Part shown: piece by piece, positions 834 to 28,690 of the stretch | How the letters are laid out: every line of letters begins with the position of its first letter | Numbering within the stretch: the first letter of the stretch is position 1 | DNA from: Candidatus Methanomethylicus sp. | GTDB lineage: Archaea > Thermoproteota > Methanomethylicia > Methanomethylicales > Methanomethylicaceae | Direction of reading: 5' to 3' | NCBI GenBank assembly: GCA_028683025.1 | Contig: JAJRAB010000074.1 | Location: forward strand, 1-28,690 | Length of the DNA: 28,690 bases | The notes under the pieces: generated by a model | Told to the model about the DNA's origin: nothing | Databases searched by the model: none | Seen by the model: only the letters and a program-made list of their open reading frames with translations | Made by a program: the position numbers and the translations under genes

Positions 834-871
834 CATATCTAGCATTGTTTATGATCAGGGGTAAAGTAGCT

Positions 872-1513
872 ATGAAAGAAGAAATTTTAAAGGGATTAGC
901 CCAAGCAGTTATTGATGGAGATCTGGACAAGGCACAGCATTTTTCCAAGGAAGCCATTGCCAATAAAATTGATGCCTATGAGGCAATTATGGAAGGTTGT
1001 GCCAAGGGGATGAACATTGTAAGCCAGAAGTATGAGACAGGTGAATGTTTTGTCCCGGAGGTTCTGTGCTCTGCTGAAGCCATGACAACAGCCATGGATA
1101 TGCTGAAGCCCTACCTGAAGGCAGATACCACAAATGTGCCGAAGAAGGTAGTCATTGGCACAACCCAAGGCGATGTCCATGAGATCGGAAAGAACTTGGT
1201 GACGCTCATGCTCGAGGCAGGCGGATTCAAGGTCATAGATCTTGGTCCAGATGTCTCTGTTGAAAAATTTGTCGAGACGGTGAAGAAAGAGAATGCGGAC
1301 ATCTGCGCCATGTCCTCGCTGATGACTACTTCCATGATCTTCATGCCGGATATAATCAAGGCCGTTAAGGCGGCCAAACCAGACACAGTAACCATGGTTG
1401 GAGGCGGCCCCTTGAGCCCTTCAACTGCGGAAACCTATGGCGCAGACGGCTATGCCAAGGATGCCTCTGTTGCAGTTAAAGTAGCTAAAGAATTGACTTC
1501 AAAGAGGGATTAA
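872..1513 (+). CDS. Methyltransferase corrinoid protein (MtaC/MtbC/MttC-like)
   Basis: N-terminal B12-binding_2 cap (EAIMEGCAKGMNIVSQKYETGECFVPEV), His-on motif GDVHEIGKNLV, SSLMTTSM, MVGGGP and YGADGYAKDA. ATG at 872 preferred over TTG at 845. Confidence 0.93.
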   Translation: MKEEILKGLAQAVIDGDLDKAQHFSKEAIANKIDAYEAIMEGCAKGMNIVSQKYETGECFVPEVLCSAEAMTTAMDMLKPYLKADTTNVPKKVVIGTTQGDVHEIGKNLVTLMLEAGGFKVIDLGPDVSVEKFVETVKKENADICAMSSLMTTSMIFMPDIIKAVKAAKPDTVTMVGGGPLSPSTAETYGADGYAKDASVAVKVAKELTSKRD

Positions 1514-1517
1514 AAAA

Positions 1518-2588
1518 ATGAAAGACAGACTATCAGGCGGAGAGAGGATGTTTGGCCTCCTGACAGGCCAAAAGATTGATCGAATACCCGTAAGTCCCTT
1601 TGCCGAGGGCTATGCTGCCAAGGTGTGCGGCGCATCGATAGGGGACTTTTACTCAAACGCCAAAACCAATTTCTGGTGCCAGCTGATGGCTGCAGACATG
1701 CATGGCTATGATTCATCACCGTTCTACGGCTATGCCAGCGTAGGTGCCTGGGAGTTCGGCGGCAAGATCGAGTTCCCCTACGGTGTGGGCCACGGCGCAC
1801 CTTATGTGACAAAGCATCCCATCGAGACTCCCGAGGATGTGGATAGGATGGAGATACCAAATCCCAAGACTGCTGGGGCTGTGCCTCTTACCATGGATGT
1901 CGCAAAGATGTGCAACTCATTGGGCATGCCAGCAGTATTCCAAATTGGCGGTTTCATAACCTACTGCGGCAATGCCATGGGTCCTGCAAAGATGCTGCTG
2001 TGGATGATCCGCAAGCCGGACGTCGTCCACAAGATGATTGCCAAGATAGAGGAGTTCCAAAAAGGAGTTGTTGACTACTTCGTTAACACCTTCGGAGCTG
2101 ATAAGTGCATGGCATTCAGCGGCGGCGCTACTGAGTCCAATAAGCTCATCAGTCCGAAGCAGTTTGAAGCCTTTTCCCTGCCCCACGAAATAAGCATGAG
2201 CAGATACATCCTTGACAAAGGTGTGCATATAGTGCTGGCGCATCCGTGCGCTGACCAGAACGGCAACCTGCCTTTCTACAAGAAGATGAGGGAATCATGT
2301 GGTTGGAAAGGGAAATATGTATGGAACTTCGGTCCCGAAACACCTCTGGAAAAGCAGATCGAAACCTTTGGAGCCCACGATGTAATTGGAGGCAATGTGG
2401 ATCCACCGTCGTTCCAGGTAAAGACCTTTGACGAGGTAGTAGCCCTTTGCAAGGACAATATCGAAAGGGGGATGAAGAACCCATCTGGCTATGTGCTGAT
2501 GCCAGGCTGCGAGATGCCACCCCTCACGCCGCCGATAAACGTCCACGCCATGATGGTTGCAGCAAGGAAATTCGGCGCCTACGAGTGA
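1518..2588 (+). CDS. MtaA/CmuA-family methylcobamide methyltransferase (uroporphyrinogen decarboxylase fold)
   Basis: Zn-ligand pattern H-x-C (AHPCAD) plus C-terminal GYVLMPGCEMPPLTP, LISPKQFEAF and GGNVDP. Starts 4 nt after the corrinoid gene. Confidence 0.88.
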   Translation: MKDRLSGGERMFGLLTGQKIDRIPVSPFAEGYAAKVCGASIGDFYSNAKTNFWCQLMAADMHGYDSSPFYGYASVGAWEFGGKIEFPYGVGHGAPYVTKHPIETPEDVDRMEIPNPKTAGAVPLTMDVAKMCNSLGMPAVFQIGGFITYCGNAMGPAKMLLWMIRKPDVVHKMIAKIEEFQKGVVDYFVNTFGADKCMAFSGGATESNKLISPKQFEAFSLPHEISMSRYILDKGVHIVLAHPCADQNGNLPFYKKMRESCGWKGKYVWNFGPETPLEKQIETFGAHDVIGGNVDPPSFQVKTFDEVVALCKDNIERGMKNPSGYVLMPGCEMPPLTPPINVHAMMVAARKFGAYE

Positions 2589-9319: not shown

Positions 9320-10990
9320 TCAAATAATAACGAAGGAATAGGTACCCGGTTCCAGGTTGAGCAACAGCTGGTTGCTGTCAAGTGTCCAGTCGATGTAGGT
9401 ACCCTTGGACGTGTAAACTCCTTGGATGCCCGCTGCGTTGTCAATGGTCAGAACCTGCGAGTGCTCGGTCTCTACGGTCAGGATGAAGGCTTCCCGATCC
9501 TCATCATAGCAGGCTTGGTAGACGTAGAGACCGTCCATCCTGGACTGGTTCGAGATGTAGGGCTTCGCGAAGAAAGCATCCCCTCTGGGGGTCATAAGGT
9601 CCGAGAGGGTAGAGTTGGCATGGCCCCATGCCCAAGCGAAGTTGATCACGGGATAGGTGAATGCGCTGAGGCTGCCGAGGGCGCTCGTATCAAATTCGTA
9701 CCTGTCGCCAATCCACTTCCCTTCGAAGGGCTTGTAGAACCAGTTCTCCAGCTTTGCGTTCAGCTCCGAGTCGCCCATCTCCCGGGAGCAGAAATAGGCA
9801 AAGAGGTTGGCCACGTACTCTGAGGCCCCAAAGTCATGGGGGAAGTAATAGGATTCGACCACGTAGGCCGTATTGTCGGCACTGTAATGGACGAACGCTG
9901 ACTTCCAATTCCCATAAAGGCTATCGGCCAGCGGCTCCATCCCCATGGCATTGTAGAACATGGTGATCCAGGCTGAACCGTAGGCAGAGACCTTCGGGGC
10001 GTCAAGCCCCTTCGTCATGGCCGGTCCCGGGTAGATCTGGAAGCCACCCCCCTGGGTTCTGTGCCTCTCCAGGGGCTGCATCACATAGTAGCCGTCTATC
10101 GGAATCCCGCGGGGATCCATCATGTGCTCCTGCCACCAGGCTATGCCGGGCAGGCTTGCCTCCTGGTAGGAGGTCCCGTGGAGGTTGTCATAGAGGCGCA
10201 TCGTATAGAATGGGATGGCGTTACACTGGACAAATACAATATAGGGCTCGCAGGGGATCAGACCAGTTCCCCATCGCCCCAAGTCTCCCGAGGGGTTACC
10301 GTCCCAGGCAGTGCTGGAGGTCAGGGACGAGTTCCACTGGTCCAGGTAACCTGTAATCTCACTGCTGTAGGTATTATCCCGGTAGATGCTCTCGTAGAAT
10401 AGTTCCATGAGCGTAAAGTGGCCTGTCCACATAATGTTGGTTGGTCCCCGGAAATCGTTGCCAGTGCCGGCATAGCTGGAGTTGGTGAAGCCGGGCTTGA
10501 CCCACTCGAGCTGCTCCATGGCTGAACTGTTCATCATGGCAATCAGCTTGTGGAAAATGTCCTTGTAGTAGTCCGTCCTGAAGCTGGGGGTGGAGTCAGC
10601 TATCATGGCTATGCCGTAGGTTGTGAATGGGAGGAAATAGTGGGTGTAGATGGGCGGCAGCACGCTCAGGTCGTTGACGCTCGCATAGGAGAGGTTGGTC
10701 ACATCATAATAGTCCCTGAAGAGGTTCACCAGCCCTATAACTCGGCGGTCAAGCGAAGGGTAGTCGTTGAGGTCGAAGCTACCCTTGCCTGCAACAGTAA
10801 TGGTGGGGAGCTCAAGGCTGGGATGCTGGGACGGCGTAAGTATGAAGGTTGAGTTGGCAACCAATATGGTCATAATCAGGAAGCATGAAAACAGCTTGTT
10901 CCTAGAGATCCAGCCTGAAAAACGATTTGCCACCTTCCCCCCTCCCATCGCTGGATCATTCTCGCACTCTTGGTCCTTATTAGGGTGCAC
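9320..10990 (-). CDS. Linalool dehydratase/isomerase (Ldi/LinD) family protein, secreted or membrane-anchored
   Basis: Collinear motifs recalled from LinD: YFLPFTTYGIA, NIMWTGH, GLIPCEPYIVFVQCNA, YDNLHGTSY, VSAYGSAW, REMGDSEL. N-terminal basic-hydrophobic anchor and 7 N-glycosylation sequons. Confidence 0.85.
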   Translation of the reverse strand: MHPNKDQECENDPAMGGGKVANRFSGWISRNKLFSCFLIMTILVANSTFILTPSQHPSLELPTITVAGKGSFDLNDYPSLDRRVIGLVNLFRDYYDVTNLSYASVNDLSVLPPIYTHYFLPFTTYGIAMIADSTPSFRTDYYKDIFHKLIAMMNSSAMEQLEWVKPGFTNSSYAGTGNDFRGPTNIMWTGHFTLMELFYESIYRDNTYSSEITGYLDQWNSSLTSSTAWDGNPSGDLGRWGTGLIPCEPYIVFVQCNAIPFYTMRLYDNLHGTSYQEASLPGIAWWQEHMMDPRGIPIDGYYVMQPLERHRTQGGGFQIYPGPAMTKGLDAPKVSAYGSAWITMFYNAMGMEPLADSLYGNWKSAFVHYSADNTAYVVESYYFPHDFGASEYVANLFAYFCSREMGDSELNAKLENWFYKPFEGKWIGDRYEFDTSALGSLSAFTYPVINFAWAWGHANSTLSDLMTPRGDAFFAKPYISNQSRMDGLYVYQACYDEDREAFILTVETEHSQVLTIDNAAGIQGVYTSKGTYIDWTLDSNQLLLNLEPGTYSFVII

Positions 10991-17084: not shown

Positions 17085-18404
17085 TCAGTTACCTGATTTG
17101 TGCGAGTCTTGTTTTGCCTTCATTTTCTTCAATGTGCTGTTGAGTGCCTGAACTGAGTCCCTCAGGTCTGAGATCTGCTGGTTGAAGTCGTCCTCATTCC
17201 TGGCGGGTTTTGCCACTGCTGGCTTTACTGCCGGTAGCACTTCTGGAGCCGGAGTAGTAGCTTGCGTTTCTTGAGCAGATACGGCTTTGGCTGGCTCTGG
17301 TTGGTCAAGTTCCTTTATCGCCTCCTCTAACGGGGTGGCTTTTGGCTGTGGCTTGGCTTTTATCTCAAGATTGGTGATCTCGGCATCAGCGGTAACAGTC
17401 GCATCAGCTGATTTCGGTGAGGGTATAGGCTCTGCTTTTTTGGGTTCAGCCGTTTTGGGCACTGCCTTGGGCGGCTTCTGGAGCTCTTTCACCACCTCCT
17501 CCAGCTTCACAAGAGACACCTGAATATCCTCACCCGACTCCTGGGTTTTGGCTTCTGCCTCCTTCTCCATCTGAGCCTTCTTGGCGATGATCTTTTTAGC
17601 TTCCTCAAGACTGCAGAGCGGCTTTACCTTAATTTTGGGTTCGCCGGGTTCGGCATCCTCATCTCCCGCTTTCTTTGAAGGCTGATCCAGTTCTTCCGGG
17701 GCAATGCTCTCGGGCTCGGTTCTTTTTTCCAGTATGGATTCAGAGATTACATCTCCCCTAAGCGGCATGGGTACCCTAGTCTTTGATTCAGATGATGCTT
17801 CGGACAGGGTGCCATTTTGGCTCAATGTGCTGGAGCCCATCCCGCCGGCATTTGGAGCGTCAAGGATTGTAACCTTCGGTTTTGCGTTTTGGACAGTCCA
17901 CTGGAACATGGTTTCCATTAACTTGTCGTCGTTAATCACCATCTCCTGCTTTCCGTCAGCCTTTGGAGATGACCTTGCAACCAGTGGCGGTTCACCGGCA
18001 GAAAGGCGCAGTGTCTCCGGCTCCTTCTTGGCAGTGGGTGCAGGTGCGCCCTTCTGGGGGCTCTTTACCTGGATACCCAGACTCGGTAACCGCCGTTTTT
18101 TACCCCGGGTCCATCGAAAGAGGAGATCTGCCAGCGTCTTCCGATCGCTGAGCTTCATCCCGCTGCCGCTGACAGTGGGTATCCCCTGGACATCTTCGGG
18201 TTCGAGGCCCCATGCCCTAAGTTCTTCCACGTCCGTGAGGGGGGAGGCGGGGGTGCCGTTCTTTTGCCTAGCTTTTTTAGCCCTTGTCTCCTTCTGGAAC
18301 CTCAGGTAATCCATGAAAAGTATGGCCAGCACGCCCGAAGCAATGGCCAAGCTGAATGCCACTATGAGCGGCATCATGTAAGGCATCAGTGACTCAATAT
18401 CCAC
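17085..18404 (-). CDS. Membrane-anchored, largely disordered protein with C-terminal coiled coil; probable archaellum accessory
   Basis: One N-terminal TM helix, P/E/K/A-rich low-complexity body, C-terminal heptads (FNQQISDLRDSVQALNSTLKKMK). GAGGAGG RBS before GTG; 66 nt downstream of arlJ on the same strand. Confidence 0.75.
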   Translation of the reverse strand: MDIESLMPYMMPLIVAFSLAIASGVLAILFMDYLRFQKETRAKKARQKNGTPASPLTDVEELRAWGLEPEDVQGIPTVSGSGMKLSDRKTLADLLFRWTRGKKRRLPSLGIQVKSPQKGAPAPTAKKEPETLRLSAGEPPLVARSSPKADGKQEMVINDDKLMETMFQWTVQNAKPKVTILDAPNAGGMGSSTLSQNGTLSEASSESKTRVPMPLRGDVISESILEKRTEPESIAPEELDQPSKKAGDEDAEPGEPKIKVKPLCSLEEAKKIIAKKAQMEKEAEAKTQESGEDIQVSLVKLEEVVKELQKPPKAVPKTAEPKKAEPIPSPKSADATVTADAEITNLEIKAKPQPKATPLEEAIKELDQPEPAKAVSAQETQATTPAPEVLPAVKPAVAKPARNEDDFNQQISDLRDSVQALNSTLKKMKAKQDSHKSGN

Positions 18405-18470: not shown

Positions 18471-20075
18471 TCACACAGTCGGGGTTGTAAGGTTCCCTAA
18501 CCCGATCCCCTGGAGGTATCCTATCACCGATGTGAGGCATACCAGGTAGGTCAGCCATCCTGATACCACGAACAGACCCAGGTAGAAGGACAAGTTGAAT
18601 TCCTGCTCTCCACTGATCTCGTATATCAGGAGGGCATTAATGAAAGTGAGGGCTGTCACGATAAGGTAGATGTAGACGTCGATCAGGTTCAGGTCCGGCA
18701 CCATAAAGATGACAGGCATGCCCGAGCCTTGGAACGTCTTGAAAATCTCTACGAACTGGGTTATGATCGCCATAATAAGCCCCATTATTGCGCAGAGGAT
18801 AGGGTGCATGGGTATGATTATCCCCTTCATTAGGGCTGAGACCTCGCTGAGCCTCCTCCGAAGGGTAAGCATGAACAGAGAAGAGTTGGCTACCAGCGGA
18901 CCAAACTCCTTGGCTGGCGCTCCGTAGGCATTGGCCTTTGAGAATGCCTCGGAATGGATCCGCATCATGTCGCTCGAGGTCTCGGTCTCGAAAGACTCCC
19001 AGCTTACGTTCTTGTCTATTCCAAGCTCCAGCTTTGCACTCATGCCTCGGACATAGGGGGAGAGCTTGCCGAAGTCCAGGCGGGAAACATCCCGGAAAGC
19101 ATAGATTATGGAGGTCCCCATGGTGGATAGGGAGGTGGAAAGCATGGTGGCGAACTCTGGGAACCTCTCGTCAATGGTCTCCACCCTGTTGGAGGCGTTT
19201 ATGCCCATGAAGCCGATTATGAGGCTCGGGAATCCAGAAAGACCGGCTGCCAGGAGACCCAGATCCCTCGGAACTATGTGGAGTGTTATTAAAAAGACAA
19301 AGACCAGGTTCACAAGGAACGTAAACCAGACCACATAACGGTTGATCTTTGTAAGCCTCAACAGCTGCCGCCTCTTCTTGGTCAGGGATATGACCCTGAT
19401 GACTGGTGACGAGATGTAGAAGATTAGAGCAAACATGCCGTACATTACCACGATTCCAGGCACGATGACGCCCACCATACTCATGCCAGAGCCCCAGAGG
19501 AGACCTGTGAAAGTGAGGATCATGACAATAAGCACAGAGGAGGATAGGACAGCGCTGTAGGCCTCGGTGAACCTCTTGAAGCGGATGAAGGCGCGCTCCA
19601 TGTCGCTGGAGTACATGGTCATGAAGGTATTGTACTCCTTACCAAGGAAGACAATCATGTCCTCGCCCAATTTAGCTATCTGGGCAAAGCGCTGCAGGAA
19701 ATCCTGGAGGTAAAGGAGCTTCGCATCCTTCCTCGTGATCTCGCAGGCACGGCTCAGGTCGATACCCAGATTCAACATTGCTGTAATCTTGCGCATAAGC
19801 TTCGTGATCTCGCCGAACTCGGTCCTGCTGCTGGCCCTAACAAGCTCTATGGAAGAGATGTCGGCGTAGGAGCAGGCGAGCATGTGCATTAGAAAGAAGG
19901 GCATCGCATGCCACATTCTCTTGTTGCTGCGGATGTACTTAAGGGAAACCAGCTGCTCCTTCAGGGAGTGCCGGAACTTCTCGTGGGCCCTCTTCGCCTC
20001 CAGGTTCTTGATCTCCTCCTGGGTCTTGGAAGGCATCCAGCGGGGCATTTCCTGGGCAGCCTGGCTCTGGCTCAT
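18471..20075 (-). CDS. arlJ: Archaellum motor membrane platform protein ArlJ (FlaJ)
   Basis: Two cytoplasmic T2SSF-like domains (LQDFLQRFAQ...GED; DERFPEF) with TM blocks; directly follows arlI. Confidence 0.88.
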   Translation of the reverse strand: MSQSQAAQEMPRWMPSKTQEEIKNLEAKRAHEKFRHSLKEQLVSLKYIRSNKRMWHAMPFFLMHMLACSYADISSIELVRASSRTEFGEITKLMRKITAMLNLGIDLSRACEITRKDAKLLYLQDFLQRFAQIAKLGEDMIVFLGKEYNTFMTMYSSDMERAFIRFKRFTEAYSAVLSSSVLIVMILTFTGLLWGSGMSMVGVIVPGIVVMYGMFALIFYISSPVIRVISLTKKRRQLLRLTKINRYVVWFTFLVNLVFVFLITLHIVPRDLGLLAAGLSGFPSLIIGFMGINASNRVETIDERFPEFATMLSTSLSTMGTSIIYAFRDVSRLDFGKLSPYVRGMSAKLELGIDKNVSWESFETETSSDMMRIHSEAFSKANAYGAPAKEFGPLVANSSLFMLTLRRRLSEVSALMKGIIIPMHPILCAIMGLIMAIITQFVEIFKTFQGSGMPVIFMVPDLNLIDVYIYLIVTALTFINALLIYEISGEQEFNLSFYLGLFVVSGWLTYLVCLTSVIGYLQGIGLGNLTTPTV

Positions 20076-20124: not shown

Positions 20125-22065
20125 TCATTTGCCCTCCAGTATCTTGTCGATGGCGCGCATTGTCACGTTGTCAAAGTTCATTGAGGCAACGTAGGGGTTC
20201 TCGTAGACTTTTGACAGGGCATTGTATACCTCGTAATAGTCCATGATGTTGAGCTCAATCATCTTCTTGATGATGTAGGTCCTGATGTCAAGCTCACTGT
20301 AAATTTTCCGTGAATCAGAAAGTGCCAGACCTTTACTGGGAGCCACCTTATATTCCAGGAGGTAGCTGTTGCCCACTCCCCTGAAGGTGTGCTTGTCAGT
20401 GACCGGATCCCAGGAGAAGATCTCAATATAGTTGTAAGACTTCTCCACCGGGTCTACACCGATCATCTCGCATATACCCGTAACCCGCCTCTCAAAGCGG
20501 TTTGTGACAGAGGACTTTACGCTGCTCTGGAAGAGGACCACATTGAGGTTGTCAACATAGGCCGAGGGAATATTGATGGGATCGCCGGTGATCCTCTGGA
20601 TGAGCTTGACCATGGATGCGGCGTGGAATGTGGAGATAACCGGGTGACCGGTCTGGATAGCCTGGAACGCTACCGCCCCCTCCTTCCCCCTGATCTCGCC
20701 CACTATGATGTAGTTGGGCCTCTGCCTCAGGGCAGACTTCAGCAGGTCGAAGAGCTCGATGGACGATTGCTCAGTCTCGCCCTTCCTGGTGCATTCGCTG
20801 ATCCAGTTGGGGTGGGGGATGTAAACCTCAGGAGTGTCCTCTATTGTGATTATCTTGGCGTTGGGGCGGATGAAGACGGTCGAGGCGTTGAGGGTTGTGG
20901 TCTTCCCCGAGGCGGTCTCTCCGCAGATGAACATGGACATGCCGTGTTCGAGCATCATCCATAGGTAGGCCGCCATCTGGGGGCTGAGCGTGCCGAACTT
21001 TACCAGCTGGGTTATGCTCATGGGTATCTTGGAGAACTTACGGATGGTGAAGTTGGAACCACGCCTGCTCACATCGGTCCCAAAGACAACGTTGAGCCTC
21101 GAGCCATCCTGGAGAGTGGCGTCGATTATGGGCCGGCGCGGGCTGCAGGGTCTCCCTATCTTCTCGCACACCCTGATTACGAAGCCGTCCAGGTCCTGGG
21201 GAGTTGGGAACGCAATGGCAGCCCGCATCGAGCTGAAGACCTTATGCTCCACGAAGATTGGACCTACTCCATCACAAGAAATATCCTCAATGTTCGTGTC
21301 CCGAATTAGGGGCTCTATTATGCCGAAACCTATCTTCTCGGTCATTATCTCGTAGCGAAGGCGGTTGTACTCATCCTCGTTTACCCTGATGATCTCCTTA
21401 ACGCCCTTGGGAGGCGAGGCAGCCGATCCTCCGACCTTGACTAAGCTGTCGAACATCTCTTTGAGCATTTCTTCCTTGTTCTCAGCGATCTTAGTCGCCA
21501 TCTGGTCAGTTATCATCGAGGCGAAGAGCTCCTCGACCTTCTTTATCAGGTCACTCTTCTCTGGGGGAAGGCGGGGCTCTATGGGAGCGTAGACCCCGGC
21601 AGGCTCCCTTACGTTCTTGTACAGGTGGACGAAGATGCCCTCGTTGACGGGATAGATAAAGTTGAACTTCTTAAGGGACCGCATGTCCCTCGTCAGAGCT
21701 GTCTTGAACTGGAGCGGTTCGCCGATTGGGTCAGCCACCTTGGCCTTCTGTTGGACATACTCTACAAGGTGGGGATTCTTCTTGGCGTACTCCTCGTAGG
21801 TGGGCCCCATGGATGCTGGCGCTACTTCGCAAGCGCTTTTTGCCCTCGCGTCGGCAGGCTGGGGAGCTGCAGGAGGGGGAGGGGAAACGGCCGTCTGTAG
21901 TGGGGCAGGAATGGTCGTAGATGGGGATTTTGGGGACTGGGTAGCAGGCGCGGGGGATGCTGTTGCCTGTGGCACGGAGCTGGCAACCAGTTTGGCTTCG
22001 GGTGTAACCACGACCGTCTTGTCATCGGGTTTATCTTTCTTGGTTACCACCTGCGCCTGTGACAT
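20125..22065 (-). CDS. arlI: Archaellum assembly/rotation ATPase ArlI (FlaI)
   Basis: DISCDG, Walker A GETASGKTT, IEDTPE, ALRQRPNYIIVGEIRG, TGHPVISTFHA. Confidence 0.95.
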   Translation of the reverse strand: MSQAQVVTKKDKPDDKTVVVTPEAKLVASSVPQATASPAPATQSPKSPSTTIPAPLQTAVSPPPPAAPQPADARAKSACEVAPASMGPTYEEYAKKNPHLVEYVQQKAKVADPIGEPLQFKTALTRDMRSLKKFNFIYPVNEGIFVHLYKNVREPAGVYAPIEPRLPPEKSDLIKKVEELFASMITDQMATKIAENKEEMLKEMFDSLVKVGGSAASPPKGVKEIIRVNEDEYNRLRYEIMTEKIGFGIIEPLIRDTNIEDISCDGVGPIFVEHKVFSSMRAAIAFPTPQDLDGFVIRVCEKIGRPCSPRRPIIDATLQDGSRLNVVFGTDVSRRGSNFTIRKFSKIPMSITQLVKFGTLSPQMAAYLWMMLEHGMSMFICGETASGKTTTLNASTVFIRPNAKIITIEDTPEVYIPHPNWISECTRKGETEQSSIELFDLLKSALRQRPNYIIVGEIRGKEGAVAFQAIQTGHPVISTFHAASMVKLIQRITGDPINIPSAYVDNLNVVLFQSSVKSSVTNRFERRVTGICEMIGVDPVEKSYNYIEIFSWDPVTDKHTFRGVGNSYLLEYKVAPSKGLALSDSRKIYSELDIRTYIIKKMIELNIMDYYEVYNALSKVYENPYVASMNFDNVTMRAIDKILEGK

Positions 22066-22093: not shown

Positions 22094-22819
22094 TCATGCC
22101 TTTACAGCTGTGAAGGGGAGTATCCTTATCCCCATGTTCGGTTCCACCTTGAAGGTAGCCATGTTGTTGGTTGCCTTCATGGCGCCCCTCAGCTTCAGTA
22201 TCTCAACGCTCCTGGCCGTCTCGTTGCTGGGAAGCGTCTTAACCTTGAACACGAAGTGGCCGTCGCACATCGAGCGGATCCTGATGAGGAGGTTTGTGTC
22301 GAAGGCAAAAGGGTGGAGGGTCACCAGGATCACCCTTCTCCTCTGGTCCACAAAATTGCGGAGCTCTGAGAGGAAGTTTAGTAGGTCGTTCTGTGAAGAG
22401 TGGGTTGCGATGTAGGTTACCGAGTCGAAGATTATTACATCCGCGTCACCCTTCTTCTTTATGTAGTTGCTCATGACGGCGAGGTAGTTGGAGGTTATGT
22501 TCTCGTCCCAGTCTATACCCTTGGAGTGGAATGCGGTTATCTTGAATTTGCCCTTGATGAAGTAGGGCAGGGCGTCAAAACCAAAACTCTCGAGCTGACT
22601 CAGGGTAGAGGTGGTCGTCATTTCAGTCGTGACGTAGCGGACCGACAGGTCAGATTTCAGGGCGCCAATTATGACATCCTGGCAGAATACGCTCTTGCCA
22701 GTATCGTTCTCCCCTTCGATGAGGTTCATGGAGGGTATGGGAAGGCCACCCATCATCCTGTCCAGCTCTCCATTGCCCATCTTTACTGATTCAGCCCTTT
22801 TTACATCGACAACTGCCAT
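22094..22819 (-). CDS. arlH: Archaellum accessory RecA/KaiC-like ATP-binding protein ArlH (FlaH)
   Basis: ELDRMMGGLP, GENDTGKS, IIFDS, TLHP, RIRSMCDGH, KLRGA, FKVEPNMGIRI. ATG at 22819 lies 2 nt after the arlF stop; the ORF-track extension is a shadow of arlF. Confidence 0.93.
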   Translation of the reverse strand: MAVVDVKRAESVKMGNGELDRMMGGLPIPSMNLIEGENDTGKSVFCQDVIIGALKSDLSVRYVTTEMTTTSTLSQLESFGFDALPYFIKGKFKITAFHSKGIDWDENITSNYLAVMSNYIKKKGDADVIIFDSVTYIATHSSQNDLLNFLSELRNFVDQRRRVILVTLHPFAFDTNLLIRIRSMCDGHFVFKVKTLPSNETARSVEILKLRGAMKATNNMATFKVEPNMGIRILPFTAVKA

Positions 22820-23371: not shown

Positions 23372-23857
23372 CTAGACTGCAAAGTAGAACTCGGCGTTCA
23401 CCCCGTTGCTGGTGATGATCTTGAGGTAGTAGTCCCCTGGCGAGATGCTATAGGGGAGGAGGAGGGTAATTTCTATAGTCTCGCCAGGGTCGAACCTCAG
23501 ATCCGAATCGCCATTATTCACTAAACTGTAATTCCAGGTGGGGGAAAGGGTCTGATTGAATATCATCAATGAGAAGTTTCCTCGGGGACCAAAGAAAACA
23601 TTGAAATCGGATAATGCATTTGGAGAAATTTGACTCTGTCCAGTATTCTTTACCCAAGCTTTCATTATGTTTTGGGACGAGTTTGTGGCAAAAATTACTT
23701 TGATTGAAGTTGAGACAGTTTCAGTTGCATCGTTAATGGCTGAGAGTTGGGCACCATTCAACCTCAAAGATCCCTGCATGAATATGAAGGCTGCAGTGGA
23801 TGCTACAACAACAACTGCGATTGTGATGATTGCTTCAGTTATTACGTTTGTTGCCAT
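23372..23857 (-). CDS. arlG: Archaellum stator protein ArlG (FlaG)
   Basis: MATNVITEAIITIAVV, AWVKNTG, DPGETIEI, GDYYLKIITSNGV. Confidence 0.85.
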   Translation of the reverse strand: MATNVITEAIITIAVVVVASTAAFIFMQGSLRLNGAQLSAINDATETVSTSIKVIFATNSSQNIMKAWVKNTGQSQISPNALSDFNVFFGPRGNFSLMIFNQTLSPTWNYSLVNNGDSDLRFDPGETIEITLLLPYSISPGDYYLKIITSNGVNAEFYFAV

Positions 23858-25040
23858 TAATCTTCACCATTTTTGAGCCATTCCCATTTCCATTGCAGTC
23901 GCCATTGCCGTTTCCATTTTCTGTATAGTTGCTATTTTTCAGCATGAGAGAAGAGGATGTCTTCAGGAGGTTCAGGACAACCAAGAAGTCCAGATCAGAG
24001 CTTCCCTTTTTCAGCTTGTCAAACAGGTAAGCTATTGTGATGTGATCACTAATTGCGACCTCTTGCTCTTCGGGGATGTCCTTTGAATTCACTACAGATA
24101 CCACGTTTAACAGGGCAGATTTGACTTCCTCAGAGAACCAACCTTTGCGGTAATAATCTTCAATTACATTTTGGGCACCTTTCCTGCCAAAGATCTTCAT
24201 TAGAGCAGCAGCACAGGCAGTCAATCCAACTATACTTACGCCTACGACAGGCGTGGGTTCATTGGTTGAAAGCAGTGCATTATCTTTTATTGTTGCTTCA
24301 GGAGTTGTGCCCCCTCTGTTTTTTGGTTGTTGGAAAGCGAAACTGGATTGATTTAATAATGGTGCTGTGCCGCCTTCAGGCAGTGGAGGTGAGCCTCTGA
24401 ATAGTTTCATTGATTCTTGCAGGACTCCGCCTTCCTTGAGTATTTCCTCAAGCTCTTCCTTTACTGAGTCCTTAAACTGCTTCTCCAGCTTTTCCTTGAT
24501 TTCTTTCTCCAACCGTTCCTCCAGTTCAATCTTGAAATATTCTTTCATCCGGCTTTGCATATCATCTTGCATTTCAGGGCTGTTTAGAGCTTCGCCTAGC
24601 TTCTCCCCCAAAGCTGCTTTGAGGGCGTTCATGTCAATCGGGACGTTCAGCATCCCTTTATCCTTGAGCTCACTCACTTTCAACTCGATAATTGATCCAA
24701 GTTGCTCATCGATGAATTTAGCCATTATCTCATTGACTGCCTGCTTCATTTTTCCATCCACAATAGTCTTGACAAGCGAGTCGACCCGTTTTTCCATGAA
24801 TTCTTTGAGCTTATTTTCTACGATGTTATCGGCCATTGTTAGAATTACTTCATCAATCCCCAGGCCTTTAAGGTAGTTTAGGGGGTTATCAAGGTCAGTT
24901 AGAATGTTCCTGACATCGCTCAAAACAGCACGAGTCTCATGGGACATCTCGGATACGGTATTCTCTAGCTTTGAAGTCTTCTCTTCTAGCCTGAGAACTT
25001 TCATCCCAACGTCTTCTGATTCCTGCTGCTGTGATGTCAT
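23835..25040 (-). CDS. ArlC/D/E-like fusion protein with central helical-repeat region
   Basis: N-terminal ArlC-like coil (LEEKTSKLENTVSEM...LDNPL) and a C-terminal ArlD/E-like signature (IFGRKGAQNVIEDYYRKGWFSEEVKSALL). GAGGT RBS before ATG 25040. Confidence 0.65.
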   Translation of the reverse strand: MTSQQQESEDVGMKVLRLEEKTSKLENTVSEMSHETRAVLSDVRNILTDLDNPLNYLKGLGIDEVILTMADNIVENKLKEFMEKRVDSLVKTIVDGKMKQAVNEIMAKFIDEQLGSIIELKVSELKDKGMLNVPIDMNALKAALGEKLGEALNSPEMQDDMQSRMKEYFKIELEERLEKEIKEKLEKQFKDSVKEELEEILKEGGVLQESMKLFRGSPPLPEGGTAPLLNQSSFAFQQPKNRGGTTPEATIKDNALLSTNEPTPVVGVSIVGLTACAAALMKIFGRKGAQNVIEDYYRKGWFSEEVKSALLNVVSVVNSKDIPEEQEVAISDHITIAYLFDKLKKGSSDLDFLVVLNLLKTSSSLMLKNSNYTENGNGNGDCNGNGNGSKMVKINGNKRNN

Positions 25041-25257: not shown

Positions 25258-25881
25258 TTACGCTACTAACAAAGTCATTACTGATTGGATGTCACCAGGT
25301 ATGCTTGCACTGATAGTAAGTTTTGCACCGGTCATAGGAATTAGATCAACATAGAAGTGCTCATATTTTGCAATGTTGCCATCGGTGGCATCTATTTGGG
25401 CTAGATTGAGAAGTACTGCAAATTCTTCCCCTTGTTCAAGTACTGTATCACTGTCGCCTTGTACTACCATCACTGTACATTTTGCAGATGGATCATCAAG
25501 AATTGTTTGGTTGTAAGCGCTTTCAAAGTCATTGGCCGCATACACATCTGCTACAAGCACATCATTGTTCTTATAGGATACGGTGAGCTTTGAATAGTCG
25601 AAGTCTATTGGTGTATTACCTGGTGCTAGTTTCGCTAATATTATAATATCGGTAGCTTCACCTGATGTTGTATTTCCATAGGCCCATAGAGTTTGAAGTT
25701 GAAGTGCAGAAGTTGCCTGTCCCGTACCTGAAGTTATTGCTTCCTGGGCTTTTTGTGTTGTTAATAGGCCCATGTTAAGTATGGCAAATGCGAACACCGA
25801 AGCTGCAATTACGAATGCAATGACAATGATTGCCGTTTCTATGCCTGTCATGCCTTTACGATTCTTTCTGAGAGTTCTCAT
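25258..25881 (-). CDS. arlB: Archaellin ArlB (FlaB)
   Basis: Class III signal peptide MRTLRKNRKG|MTGIETAIIVIAFVIAASVFAF; sequons NTT and NQT. Confidence 0.96.
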   Translation of the reverse strand: MRTLRKNRKGMTGIETAIIVIAFVIAASVFAFAILNMGLLTTQKAQEAITSGTGQATSALQLQTLWAYGNTTSGEATDIIILAKLAPGNTPIDFDYSKLTVSYKNNDVLVADVYAANDFESAYNQTILDDPSAKCTVMVVQGDSDTVLEQGEEFAVLLNLAQIDATDGNIAKYEHFYVDLIPMTGAKLTISASIPGDIQSVMTLLVA

Positions 25882-26033: not shown

Positions 26034-26938
26034 TCAGAAATAAATTGAGGACTGGCACATTAATAGATTTAGTATAGCTATAATGCCAATAGAAATTGTG
26101 AACAGAAGCCAAAAAGAGGTTAAAACCAGACCCAGTGGGAAAAGGATACTTAAAAGTGAAGCCCCTTCCCCAAGACATAGCACCCCAAGTATTCGATGAA
26201 ACATATCCCTTGGGCTGGAGGTCCTAGTCAGCCTGCTGAGGACCTTGTAGGTTATCGAGTCCTTGAGCTTGCGGTAGGCCGGCAGGCGGTAGAATTGCTG
26301 TATGCCCTCATTGGTCAGGGCATAGACTGGCTCTTGCTTCTTCGTCTTGCTCTGGATGCCAATTTTTTTAAGTAACTTTACTGAGCGGGGCTCGTCCATG
26401 TAGCGCCTAAAGAGCTTTGGCCCCTGTTCAAATATACATCCAAGTAGCTCTCAGTGCGTTGGGTACTCAAACCAACTACGCCTGCCAATTTTTTGATCGC
26501 TAGGCGGTTTCCTTTAGACGTTCCTAAGGCTAATAGCAACTGGGCAGTAACTGAGGCCATTGAGAAGGCGCCAGGATCTAGCGCTGTGGGTTGGGTAAGC
26601 GTAGGCGACTCGATCAAGGGTGTTTGGGATTCTTTTTCCTCTATGAATCGTATTAGCGAAGATATGTTTTCCAGCCCAGTAGATGTCAATTTGTACGTAG
26701 GGTAACTCCCATTTCCAGAAATGGACTCTATAAGCTCTTTATTTTTGAGCTTTCGTAATGAGTCGGTGACAGCCTTTCTCCTTTGACCAACTGCCTGAGC
26801 AATATCTGCTGCAGACATCTCCTTTTGAGAGAGAGCCATCATAATATCAAGCTGCAATGAATCTTTAGATATATTCACAAAGCTAACTACATATCTAAGC
26901 TGGTTTATGCGATCAGCGATCATTCCGTAATCAGACAT
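26034..26938 (-). pseudogene. Membrane-anchored wHTH regulator (ArnR-like), copy 2, split by a 1-nt deletion at about 26421-26424
   Basis: ORFs 26378..26977 and 26034..26399 align end to end with the 302-aa paralogue. TTGGCCCCTG here versus TTGGCTCCCTG in the paralogue; restoring one base gives 301 aa. Confidence 0.8.
26224..26473. repeat. Direct repeat unit shared with 27188-27438
   Basis: 26224-26267 is identical to 27188-27231 (44 bp); 26353-26473 is identical to 27317-27438 apart from the one deleted base. Confidence 0.9.
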
Positions 26939-27003
26939 GGGCATCACCCAACTGCGATCGCTTGGAATTGAAGCCATATGACCAGTAAGATGGGATATTT
27001 TCC

Positions 27004-27912
27004 CTATCCGACTGCTTTGTAAAGCATGAAGTCAGCAAGAGTAATGCTCCCTACAAGAGTTGTGAAGAAGATCCAAACGCAGAATGAAAATGGCCCTAAA
27101 GGCAGCATGACACCGAGGGCCGAAATTAGGCCTCCAGAACAGAGCACTATTGCTAAACGTTTGAACATCTCGCGGGGATTCCCAGTTCTAGTCAGCCTGC
27201 TGAGGACCTTGTAGGTTATCGAGTCCTTGAGTTTGCGGTAAGCTGGCAAGCGGTAGAACTGCTGAAGGCCTTCGTTGGTCAGGGCATAGACTGGCTCCTG
27301 CCTTTTGGTTTTACTTTGGATGCCAATTTTTTTAAGTAACTTTACTGAGCGGGGCTCGTCCATGTAGCGCCTAAAGAGCTTTGGCTCCCTGTTCAAATAT
27401 ACATCCAAGTAGCTCTCAGTGCGTTGGGTACTCAAACCGATTGATCTGGCAAGTCTTTTTACAGGTAGGCGATTTTCTTTGGATGTCCCTAACATGAGCA
27501 GTAGTTCTGAAGTAACAGAAGCCACAGGAAGATTTTCGAGTCCCATATCTTTGGAAAATGGTGTAGAGGGCGAAGCTGTTGGAAGATTGGGCGCAGCATC
27601 AGCTTTCTTCACATCCATAAAATCCATTAGTGTTGTTACGCAGTTCTCTCCAGTTGAGGATAACTTGAATGCAGAATTCTTACCCTCATCCGAGACAAGT
27701 TCCACCAGGCCCTTGTTCTTCAGCTTCCGCATTGCATCTGTAACGGCCTTCCGTCTCTGGCCGACCTCTTTGGCTATCTCAGCTGCAGATAGCTCCCCTT
27801 TGTTACTGAGGGCGATTACAATGTTAAATTGAAGAGTGCTTTTTGAGATGTCTATTAGCCGATCTACATCCCTAAGTTGATCCAACCTCTGCATTACGGC
27901 TGCTAATGACAC
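27004..27912 (-). CDS. Membrane-anchored wHTH transcription regulator (ArnR-like), copy 1
   Basis: N-terminal wHTH (LSAAEIAKEVGQRRKAVTDAMRKLKNKGLV), a second HTH-like segment (LPVKRLARSIGLSTQRTESYL) and two C-terminal TM helices; upstream of arlB. Confidence 0.78.
   Translation of the reverse strand: MSLAAVMQRLDQLRDVDRLIDISKSTLQFNIVIALSNKGELSAAEIAKEVGQRRKAVTDAMRKLKNKGLVELVSDEGKNSAFKLSSTGENCVTTLMDFMDVKKADAAPNLPTASPSTPFSKDMGLENLPVASVTSELLLMLGTSKENRLPVKRLARSIGLSTQRTESYLDVYLNREPKLFRRYMDEPRSVKLLKKIGIQSKTKRQEPVYALTNEGLQQFYRLPAYRKLKDSITYKVLSRLTRTGNPREMFKRLAIVLCSGGLISALGVMLPLGPFSFCVWIFFTTLVGSITLADFMLYKAVG
27188..27438. repeat. Direct repeat unit shared with 26224-26473
   Basis: See the partner repeat; identity includes synonymous positions. 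Confidence 0.9.
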
Positions 27913-28029: not shown

Positions 28030-28356
28030 CTAAGCAATTTTTTTATAATTCCCACAACTCACCTCATCCAGAATTTTCTTTATTTGAGTCACATAATTTT
28101 CCGCATTTACATCGCTCGCGAGGCCAAGCATCAGAAACTTTACACTGCTCATGGGTATTATCACATACTTGTGGTTTGGTGTCGAGAATATGCAGTAGTG
28201 CATCTGTGGCAACCTACCCACAAGAAATGAAGCCATCCTTTTCATGCCCTTATCAAGATTGGGTCCCTTGTACAGCAGTTCTTCGCCTTCGGTATGGTCA
28301 ACGAGCATCGCTTCTTTGACAACTTCGCCATCTACAAGAACGTCTAGGAATGTCAC
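28030..28356 (-). CDS. Small hypothetical protein, possibly roadblock/longin-like
   Basis: 108 aa with a helix-strand-strand-helix-strand-strand-strand-helix pattern (AMLVD, YCIFS, KYVIIP, FLMLG). Confidence 0.5.
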   Translation of the reverse strand: MTFLDVLVDGEVVKEAMLVDHTEGEELLYKGPNLDKGMKRMASFLVGRLPQMHYCIFSTPNHKYVIIPMSSVKFLMLGLASDVNAENYVTQIKKILDEVSCGNYKKIA

Positions 28357-28543: not shown

Positions 28544-28690
28544 TCAGATCTCAAAAAGGTCTGGATCTACATTGCGGGTCATGCCTGTCCTCATTAGCCT
28601 CGAGGAATCCCTGAATAGGATTACTGCCCAGATCCCAAGTAGCAGAACTACCGTTCCGATTATGACACCCTGGCCTATGAGGAAGTCTGT
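28544..28690 (-). CDS. C-terminal end of a membrane protein (runs off window edge)
   Basis: Hand translation TDFLIGQGVIIGTVVLLLGIWAVILFRDSSRLMRTGMTRNVDPDLFEI*; one TM helix. Confidence 0.55.
   Translation of the reverse strand, partial: TDFLIGQGVIIGTVVLLLGIWAVILFRDSSRLMRTGMTRNVDPDLFEI

What the first reader, a model, noticed from the sequence alone, without database searches (positions are those of the whole stretch)
23835..25040. ArlC/D/E-like fusion with a PopZ-like helical insert at the position where Sulfolobales have arlX
The ends resemble ArlC and ArlD/E, the euryarchaeal switch proteins that receive CheY signals via CheF. The middle has stacked 4/8-residue amphipathic repeats, for example IMAKFIDEQLGSIIELKVSEL, reminiscent of the self-assembling C-terminal helices of alphaproteobacterial PopZ. 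It has no TM helix. It could both dock signals and polymerise into a polar-cap-like scaffold (inference). No che genes lie in this window.
Basis: partly seen in the sequence, partly recalled or inferred. Interest (0 to 1): 0.7.

Follow-up and report, generated by a model that had tools for sequence, protein, structure and literature searches.

The report
Archaellum ring protein with period-4 insert
This gene encodes an ArlD/E-family protein that likely forms the cytoplasmic ring of an archaeal swimming motor; it carries an unusual lineage-specific helical insert that only superficially resembles PopZ, and its relatives have chemotaxis genes but no detectable CheF adaptor, so how signals reach their motor is an open question.

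Summary
The ORF is real (25040-23835, minus strand, 401 aa) and lies between arlB and arlG in a Methanomethylicia arl operon. Its C-terminal domain passes the Pfam ArlD/E cut-off. Its N-terminal coiled coil and Asn-Pro motif are shared with the same-slot genes of other Thermoproteota, which link weakly to Sulfolobales ArlX. No ArlC match was found on it or its orthologues. The 4-residue hydrophobic repeat is real: it is the strongest of 521 open frames in the genome, present in 29 of 29 clade members and in 0 of 124 other family members. PopZ homology is not shown: matches are sub-threshold and the layout differs. CheF was found in 0 of 62 class genomes, and none of 301 phylum genomes passed the cut-off, although 14 and 35 of them carry CheW, often beside the arl operon. 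Best reading: a soluble ArlCDE/ArlX-superfamily ring subunit with a lineage-specific helical stalk, likely tethered by a separate membrane protein encoded after arlJ. The superfamily is known; the insert and the partner genes look new.

The parts
23835..25040 (-). ArlCDE/ArlX-superfamily protein P0001, 401 aa; overlaps the arlG start by 23 nt
24861..25019 (-). Residues 8-60: heptad coiled coil with an R/K-h-x-x-h-E motif (recalled as a trimer signature), ending in the family motif D-[VI]-R...N-P-x-N
   Evidence: period 3.5; motif in 25 of 25 clade members; invariant R44, N52, P53 in 41 sequences
24636..24860 (-). Residues 61-135: conserved period-4 amphipathic insert, three similar units starting at residues 73, 93 and 117
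   Evidence: 60% mean identity to orthologues
24426..24635 (-). Residues 136-205: second, acidic, less conserved period-4 helix
   Evidence: period 4.06, 30% identity; helix in the AF2 model
24246..24425 (-). Residues 206-265: variable disordered linker, net charge 0
   Evidence: pLDDT <50; 12% identity
23955..24245 (-). Residues 266-362: ArlD/E helical domain
   Evidence: Pfam PF04659 over cut-off; pLDDT 84-95
25258..25881 (-). arlB archaellin
   Evidence: PF01917 E 1e-26
23372..23857 (-). arlG
   Evidence: NF052591 E 1.5e-7, under cut-off; PF01917
22822..23340 (-). arlF, assigned by slot and likeness to same-slot genes
   Evidence: no Pfam or NCBIfam hit; tblastn 33% to the G013 same-slot gene
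22094..22780 (-). arlH
   Evidence: NF004723 over cut-off
20125..22065 (-). arlI motor ATPase
   Evidence: NF058587 over cut-off
18471..20075 (-). arlJ
   Evidence: NF004705 E 2e-67, under cut-off
17085..18404 (-). F25: N-terminal TM helix, long disordered region, short C-terminal coil; candidate membrane tether (inferred)
   Evidence: TM hydropathy 2.6-3.2 in 8 members; follows arlJ in 10 of 11 named loci by profile, the 11th by eye; the profile hits no short-type locus
28030..28356 (-). Roadblock/LC7-fold protein that marks the che cluster in relatives
   Evidence: Foldseek probability 1.0, TM about 0.6 to LAMTOR2/3, MglB and Asgard roadblocks, 0.52 to MglC, no row at E<=0.001; present in 12 of 12 CheW-positive genomes of the family
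27004..27912 (-). ArnR-like regulator; a second copy at 26034-26977 is split by a frameshift
   Evidence: NF041016 E 8e-28, under cut-off

Best explanation
The protein is the single ArlC/D/E-ArlX-superfamily member of this archaellum operon and likely forms the cytoplasmic ring or scaffold around the ArlH/ArlI motor. Shown: operon slot, ArlD/E domain, N-terminal heptad coil with the family motif, clade-specific period-4 insert, no TM helix. Inferred: the N-terminal coil likely trimerises; the period-4 helices likely continue it as a right-handed helical bundle that acts as a stalk or spacer; the D/E domain likely contacts ArlH, as ArlD and ArlCE depend on ArlH in Haloferax; and membrane attachment, which ArlX gets from its own TM helix, is probably supplied in trans by the TM-disorder-coil gene after arlJ. 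Its core job would be structural. Where che genes are present it is the likeliest end point of the signal, but through a route other than canonical CheF.
For: Slot between arlB and arlG in 11 of 11 named loci. Pfam ArlD/E over cut-off. hhalign: family vs distant same-family set 99.9%, vs short same-slot genes (F12) 90%, and F12 vs six Sulfolobales ArlX 81%, E 1.2e-5 over 149 columns. Among 40 insert-less or short relatives, 27 match Arch_fla_DE, 10 ArlX and 3 FlaC_arch at E<=0.2. Atlas nearest clusters are Arch_fla_DE clusters, score 0.87, a lead only. Makarova 2016 (PMC4858521, section 10 and supplement rows) states that every archaellum has a FlaC/D/E-type component, with FlaX and the thaumarchaeal gene as diverged members. 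Insert-bearing orthologues occur without che genes: G009 (92% complete) has no CheW or CheR, and loci L108, L127, L128 and L132 show none in their flanks. F25 accompanies the insert type only, while some short-type genes (G025, G062, G204) carry TM plus disordered linker in cis.
Against: The direct profile match of this family to Sulfolobales ArlX is not significant (about 1%), and ArlX against a larger 99-sequence F12 set gave only 36%, so the ArlX link is transitive and weak. No FlaC_arch hit on orthologues. The AF2 monomer has pTM 0.32 and no significant fold match. F25 has no profile likeness to ArlX (2.7%), so the tether idea rests on gene position and layout alone. No experiment on any member was found in the searches run.
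Confidence: 0.72

Rival explanations
1. CheF-free switch: the protein itself, through the insert or the D/E domain and perhaps with the roadblock protein, binds phosphorylated CheY and switches the motor.
For: CheW in 13 of 16 insert-bearing class genomes against 1 of 11 with insert-less forms. CheF in 0 of 62. No CheF-like ORF among 101 scanned unassigned ORFs near arl/che genes. che genes directly abut the operon in the complete genomes L106 and L109, which lack CheF over cut-off.
Against: All 16 insert-bearing ArlI rows form one side of a branch (SH-aLRT 99, quick tree), so the co-occurrence is one event. Insert-less systems (G043, G135, G062, G204) also have che genes and no CheF, so the insert is not needed for CheF-free chemotaxis. 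Insert-bearing loci without che genes exist.
Confidence: 0.13
2. PopZ-like polar organiser: the insert self-assembles into trimers, filaments or a condensate that builds a polar scaffold, possibly recruiting the roadblock and MinD proteins, as the RomR C-terminal trimer binds the roadblock protein MglC in Myxococcus.
For: Real, conserved, clade-specific period-4 repeat. Weak DUF2497 hits. Roadblock, MinD-like and short coil genes lie in the neighbouring che cluster. PopZ H3H4 and the RomR C-terminal helix form trimers (PMC12999525 and PMC12719032, passages).
Against: DUF2497 scores stay 7-10 bits under the cut-off, and DUF445 matches more members. No atlas feature hit for residues 60-205. The insert is internal. 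No N-terminal acidic disordered region is present, and the linker has net charge 0. The roadblock profile finds nothing in G035, G009 or G050, which have the insert-type gene.
Confidence: 0.1
3. Ordinary ArlCDE that docks a CheF too diverged for the Pfam model.
For: Li 2020 (PMC7534055, passages) says all motile archaea with a che system have CheF. CheY candidates of G011, G018, G046 and G017 have an Asp at the start of helix 4, where five other Thermoproteota have Gly; an acidic patch there is linked to CheF binding in PMC10117864 (passages). Only one CheF model was used.
Against: The model rings in 3 of 3 euryarchaeal controls but passes the cut-off in 0 of 301 phylum genomes, 35 of which have CheW. 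In G011 every gene of the arl/che cluster is assigned or is a TM/disordered, coil or roadblock gene. [quoted passage not shown]
Confidence: 0.05

Closest known systems
Euryarchaeal ArlD/ArlE and ArlCE/ArlCDE fusions (PF04659, PF05377; arCOG02964)
   Same: D/E domain over the Pfam cut-off, no TM helix, slot next to arlB, N-terminal coiled coil
   Different: No ArlC-profile match, arlG-arlF order of the crenarchaeal type, ArnR-like regulator, no detectable CheF partner, about 140-residue period-4 insert
Sulfolobales ArlX (PF24151, arCOG07206)
   Same: Same slot (arlB-X-arlG-arlF); coil ending in a related motif; linked through short same-slot genes (81%)
   Different: No TM helix; no direct significant profile match; recognisable D/E domain; insert
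Thaumarchaeal and bathyarchaeal same-slot genes (family F12 here; the 'unknown gene' reclassified as FlaC/D/E by Makarova 2016)
   Same: Shared N-terminal coil and motif (94-96%); che genes without CheF
   Different: They lack the period-4 insert and the F25 gene; some carry their own TM helix
PopZ (DUF2497) and the RomR C-terminal helix
   Same: Amphipathic helices with weak DUF2497 likeness; a predicted tendency to form trimers (inferred)
   Different: Sub-threshold matches only; the segment is internal, not C-terminal; no acidic disordered region; fused to motor domains

Membership tests
ArlC/D/E-ArlX superfamily | ArlD/E domain (PF04659) | tested here: met
   25.9 bits against cut-off 21; 23 of 27 members at E<=1
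ArlC/D/E-ArlX superfamily | Encoded in a complete arl operon next to arlB | tested here: met
ArlC/D/E-ArlX superfamily | Forms a ring and binds ArlH | not testable with these tools
   needs biochemistry or cryo-ET
ArlC (FlaC_arch) | PF05377 match | tested here: inconclusive
   none on the protein or 5 orthologues; weak in 3 of 40 relatives, best E 0.0039; no euryarchaeal ArlC sequences were available for a profile-profile test
Euryarchaeal ArlCDE switch complex | CheF partner encoded | tested here: not met
   0 of 62 class genomes; 0 of 4 named genomes over cut-off; own genome 59.6% complete; one Pfam model only
ArlX (Sulfolobales) | N-terminal TM helix | tested here: not met
ArlX (Sulfolobales) | PF24151 or profile homology | tested here: inconclusive
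   direct about 1%; transitive 81% and 36%; no PF24151 hit in G000 at E<=0.01
PopZ | DUF2497 domain over cut-off | tested here: not met
   best 19.7 bits against 27; 3 of 27 members at E<=1
PopZ | N-terminal client helix, acidic disordered region, C-terminal oligomer helices | tested here: not met
   layout is coil-insert-linker-D/E; linker net charge 0; PopZ layout from PMC12999525
PopZ | Trimer-hexamer-filament-condensate assembly | not testable with these tools
   needs mass photometry or EM

The most novel reading that the evidence does not exclude
Methanomethylicia archaella use a CheF-independent switch and positioning module. A soluble trimeric ring protein with a right-handed period-4 stalk is tethered by a split-off ArlX-like membrane anchor, and the stalk binds a roadblock adaptor that, with MinD, links the motor to the chemosensory array and passes on the CheY-P signal. 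This would be an archaeal analogue of RomR-MglC or PopZ polar hubs.
Probability: 0.15. Interest if true: 0.75.

Novelty: new variant of a known kind. Interest (0 to 1): 0.4.

Why it matters
How CheY-P reaches the archaellum is known only through CheF and ArlCDE in euryarchaea. Here 35 of 301 sampled Thermoproteota genomes have a che system and none has a CheF over the Pfam cut-off. That conflicts with the statement in PMC7534055 that all chemotactic archaea have CheF, though a 2026 survey table already describes CheF as euryarchaeal (PMC13705601). Orthologues lie in the complete genomes of Ca. Methanosuratincola petrocarbonis LWZ-6 and Ca. M. verstraetei LCB70 (L106, L109; that these are cultured is recalled, not from a call), with che genes next to the operon. 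That gives a short candidate list for the missing link: this protein, the roadblock protein and F25. The insert is also a clean natural case of a 4-residue hydrophobic repeat.

Tried and rejected
Complex prediction, three copies of residues 5-135 with alignment A1: no verdict, score 0.30 against a mark of 0.42, and the job is unlike the calibration; not used as evidence either way. Foldseek PDB and VIA-align wide on the full model: nothing significant (0 rows at E<=0.001; best Z 6.5). PDB sequence searches with A1 and A2: no relative; only weak hits of the N-terminal coil to designed trimeric coiled coils, E 0.016 and above. Atlas search of the insert: no usable feature hit. The single CheF hit in the phylum (G120, 21.9 bits, under cut-off, not a CheW-positive genome) reads as a NadC-like enzyme by eye and was not scanned. 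A conserved 270-316 aa gene near other che/arl clusters, considered as a CheF candidate, is TrmB. Of 112 unassigned ORFs selected near arl/che genes, 101 were scanned and none hit CheF; of the 11 left out, 8 were already scanned or belonged to scanned families and 3 were never scanned. Attempts to obtain euryarchaeal ArlC/CheF or PopZ sequences for profile-profile tests failed, so those tests rest on Pfam models only. PMC5819425 was not held. Literature searches for Methanosuratincola with archaella and Methanomethylicia with chemotaxis terms returned 0 papers, and searches returned none on this system. Subscription papers were not searched, and one supplement of PMC13705601 was unreadable and one was cut. 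The sigma-70 promoter scan was uninformative. The ArlI tree is the quick version; the careful search did not finish. The earlier-findings look-ups returned nothing.

Full report
Observation. The finding's coordinates match an ORF on the minus strand, 25040-23835, 401 aa. It lies in the order arnR-like, arlB, this gene, arlG, arlF, arlH, arlI, arlJ. Named close homologues come from Methanomethylicia (Methanosuratincola, Methanomethylicaceae), with a few labelled Brockarchaeota, Nezhaarchaeales or Bathyarchaeota: 26 proteins at 37-48% identity. The window's genome is 59.6% complete and the window is a whole contig. None of the 5 other genomes of the same genus matched.

Anatomy. Residues 8-52 are a heptad coiled coil (period 3.5) that ends in a motif with invariant Arg44, Asn52 and Pro53 across 41 sequences. 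An R/K-h-x-x-h-E motif, recalled as a trimer signature, is present in 25 of 25 clade members. Residues 64-127 have a hydrophobic period of 4.0 (0 of 500 shuffles reach it) and 60% identity in the family; residues 137-200 repeat the period with less conservation. Residues 204-265 are disordered, and 270-360 form a confident helical domain that matches Pfam ArlD/E over the cut-off. There is no TM helix. The period-4 signal is 13.5 or more in 29 of 29 clade members, at most 9.1 in 124 other family members, and the strongest of 521 open frames in the genome. ArlI sequences from insert-bearing loci fall on one side of a branch (16 rows, SH-aLRT 99, quick tree), which fits a single origin.

Family. 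Other Thermoproteota carry shorter genes in the same slot that share the coil and motif. Profile comparisons link this family to them (99.9% and 90%), and link the short genes to six Sulfolobales ArlX (81%; 36% with a larger set). The direct link to ArlX is about 1%, and the insert matches nothing above 1%. Among 40 such relatives, 27 match ArlD/E, 10 ArlX and 3 ArlC weakly. Makarova 2016 (PMC4858521, section 10 read, supplement rows seen) already classed FlaX and the thaumarchaeal gene as diverged FlaC/D/E, so superfamily membership is not new. ArlC itself is not demonstrable on this protein.

PopZ. DUF2497 matches 3 of 27 members at E<=1, against 17 for DUF445 and 3 for V-ATPase G. In G013 the insert is the genome's best DUF2497 hit, but at 19.7 bits against a cut-off of 27; the other four genomes gave no hit on the orthologue. 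PopZ assembles through C-terminal trimer helices, terminal residues and an acidic disordered region (PMC12999525, passages); that layout is absent here. The likeness is best read as a shared helix pattern, not shown homology.

Chemotaxis. The own assembly has no CheW, CheR, CheD, MCP or CheF. The contig ends just past a roadblock-fold gene found in 12 of 12 CheW-positive genomes of the family, so the che cluster probably lies off-contig (inference). In relatives, including complete genomes L106 and L109, che genes abut the operon. CheW is present in 14 of 62 class genomes and 35 of 301 phylum genomes, but CheF passes the cut-off in none, while ringing in 3 euryarchaeal controls. None of 101 scanned neighbouring ORFs is CheF. 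PMC7534055 (passages) says all chemotactic archaea have CheF, PMC7289035 (passages) says almost all, and PMC13705601 (section 9 and supplementary table 1) describes it as euryarchaeal and reports some Asgard copies. CheW co-occurs with the insert type in 13 of 16 genomes and with insert-less types in 1 of 11. This is one evolutionary event, insert-less systems elsewhere are also CheF-free, and insert-bearing loci without che genes exist.

Partner gene. A protein with an N-terminal TM helix, a long disordered region and a short C-terminal coil (F25; window 17085-18404) follows arlJ in 10 of 11 named loci by profile and in the 11th by eye, and its profile hits no short-type locus. Several short-type genes carry a TM helix and linker in cis. 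This suggests, by inference only, a membrane anchor supplied in trans.

Mechanism. Most likely (0.72) the protein is the structural ring or scaffold subunit of the motor. By analogy with H. volcanii ArlD/ArlCE and Sulfolobus ArlX (PMC7534055 and PMC8978795, passages), the D/E domain would sit on ArlH, the N-terminal coil would oligomerise, and the period-4 helices would form a right-handed stalk. Direct CheY-P docking (0.13), a PopZ-like polar scaffold (0.10) and a hidden CheF (0.05) remain rivals. None of the binding or assembly steps is shown.

Verdict. A new variant of a known kind; interest 0.4. The PopZ and ArlC labels should be dropped unless profile or bench tests revive them. The lasting points are the clade-specific period-4 insert, its partner genes, and chemotaxis without a detectable CheF in this phylum.

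Noticed in passing
window 28030-28356 (-): Roadblock/LC7-fold protein with no Pfam hit, lying beside a short coiled-coil gene and a MinD-like gene in the che cluster of relatives; also found in G006 and G025, which lack CheW.
   Followed up: partly
window 17085-18404 (-): Unannotated TM-disorder-coil protein directly after arlJ in insert-type loci only.
   Followed up: partly
window 26034-27912 (-): Two tandem ArnR-like regulators; the second is split by a frameshift, real or an assembly error. G011 and G046 have two copies in single frames.
   Followed up: partly
window 28544-28690 (-): Partial ORF at the contig end with a weak match (E 0.024) to the Rce1-like protease gene that sits inside che clusters of G013, G014, G017 and G020.
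   Followed up: partly
window 23838-23954 (-): Asn/Gly-rich low-complexity tail of about 30 residues, absent from the 26 orthologues.
   Followed up: no
window 21800-22065 (-): ArlI has a Pro/Ala-rich N-terminal extension: 646 aa against 502-610 in other insert-type loci.
   Followed up: no
L108: Brockarchaeota-labelled locus in which arlI-arlJ and arlB point away from the ring gene-arlG-arlF-arlH block.
   Followed up: no
L064:2966-3310, L068:14711-15106, L070:13715-14152, L077:13572-13982: Conserved 114-145 aa protein with no Pfam hit, next to cheA, cheW or cheD in four other Thermoproteota; a further candidate for an unknown che component.
   Followed up: partly
window 9320-10990 (-): Linalool dehydratase/isomerase-like gene (PF18566, E 1.9e-21), next to an ECF S-component gene.
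   Followed up: no
window 845-2588 (+): Corrinoid protein and URO-D/MtaA-like gene pair.
   Followed up: no
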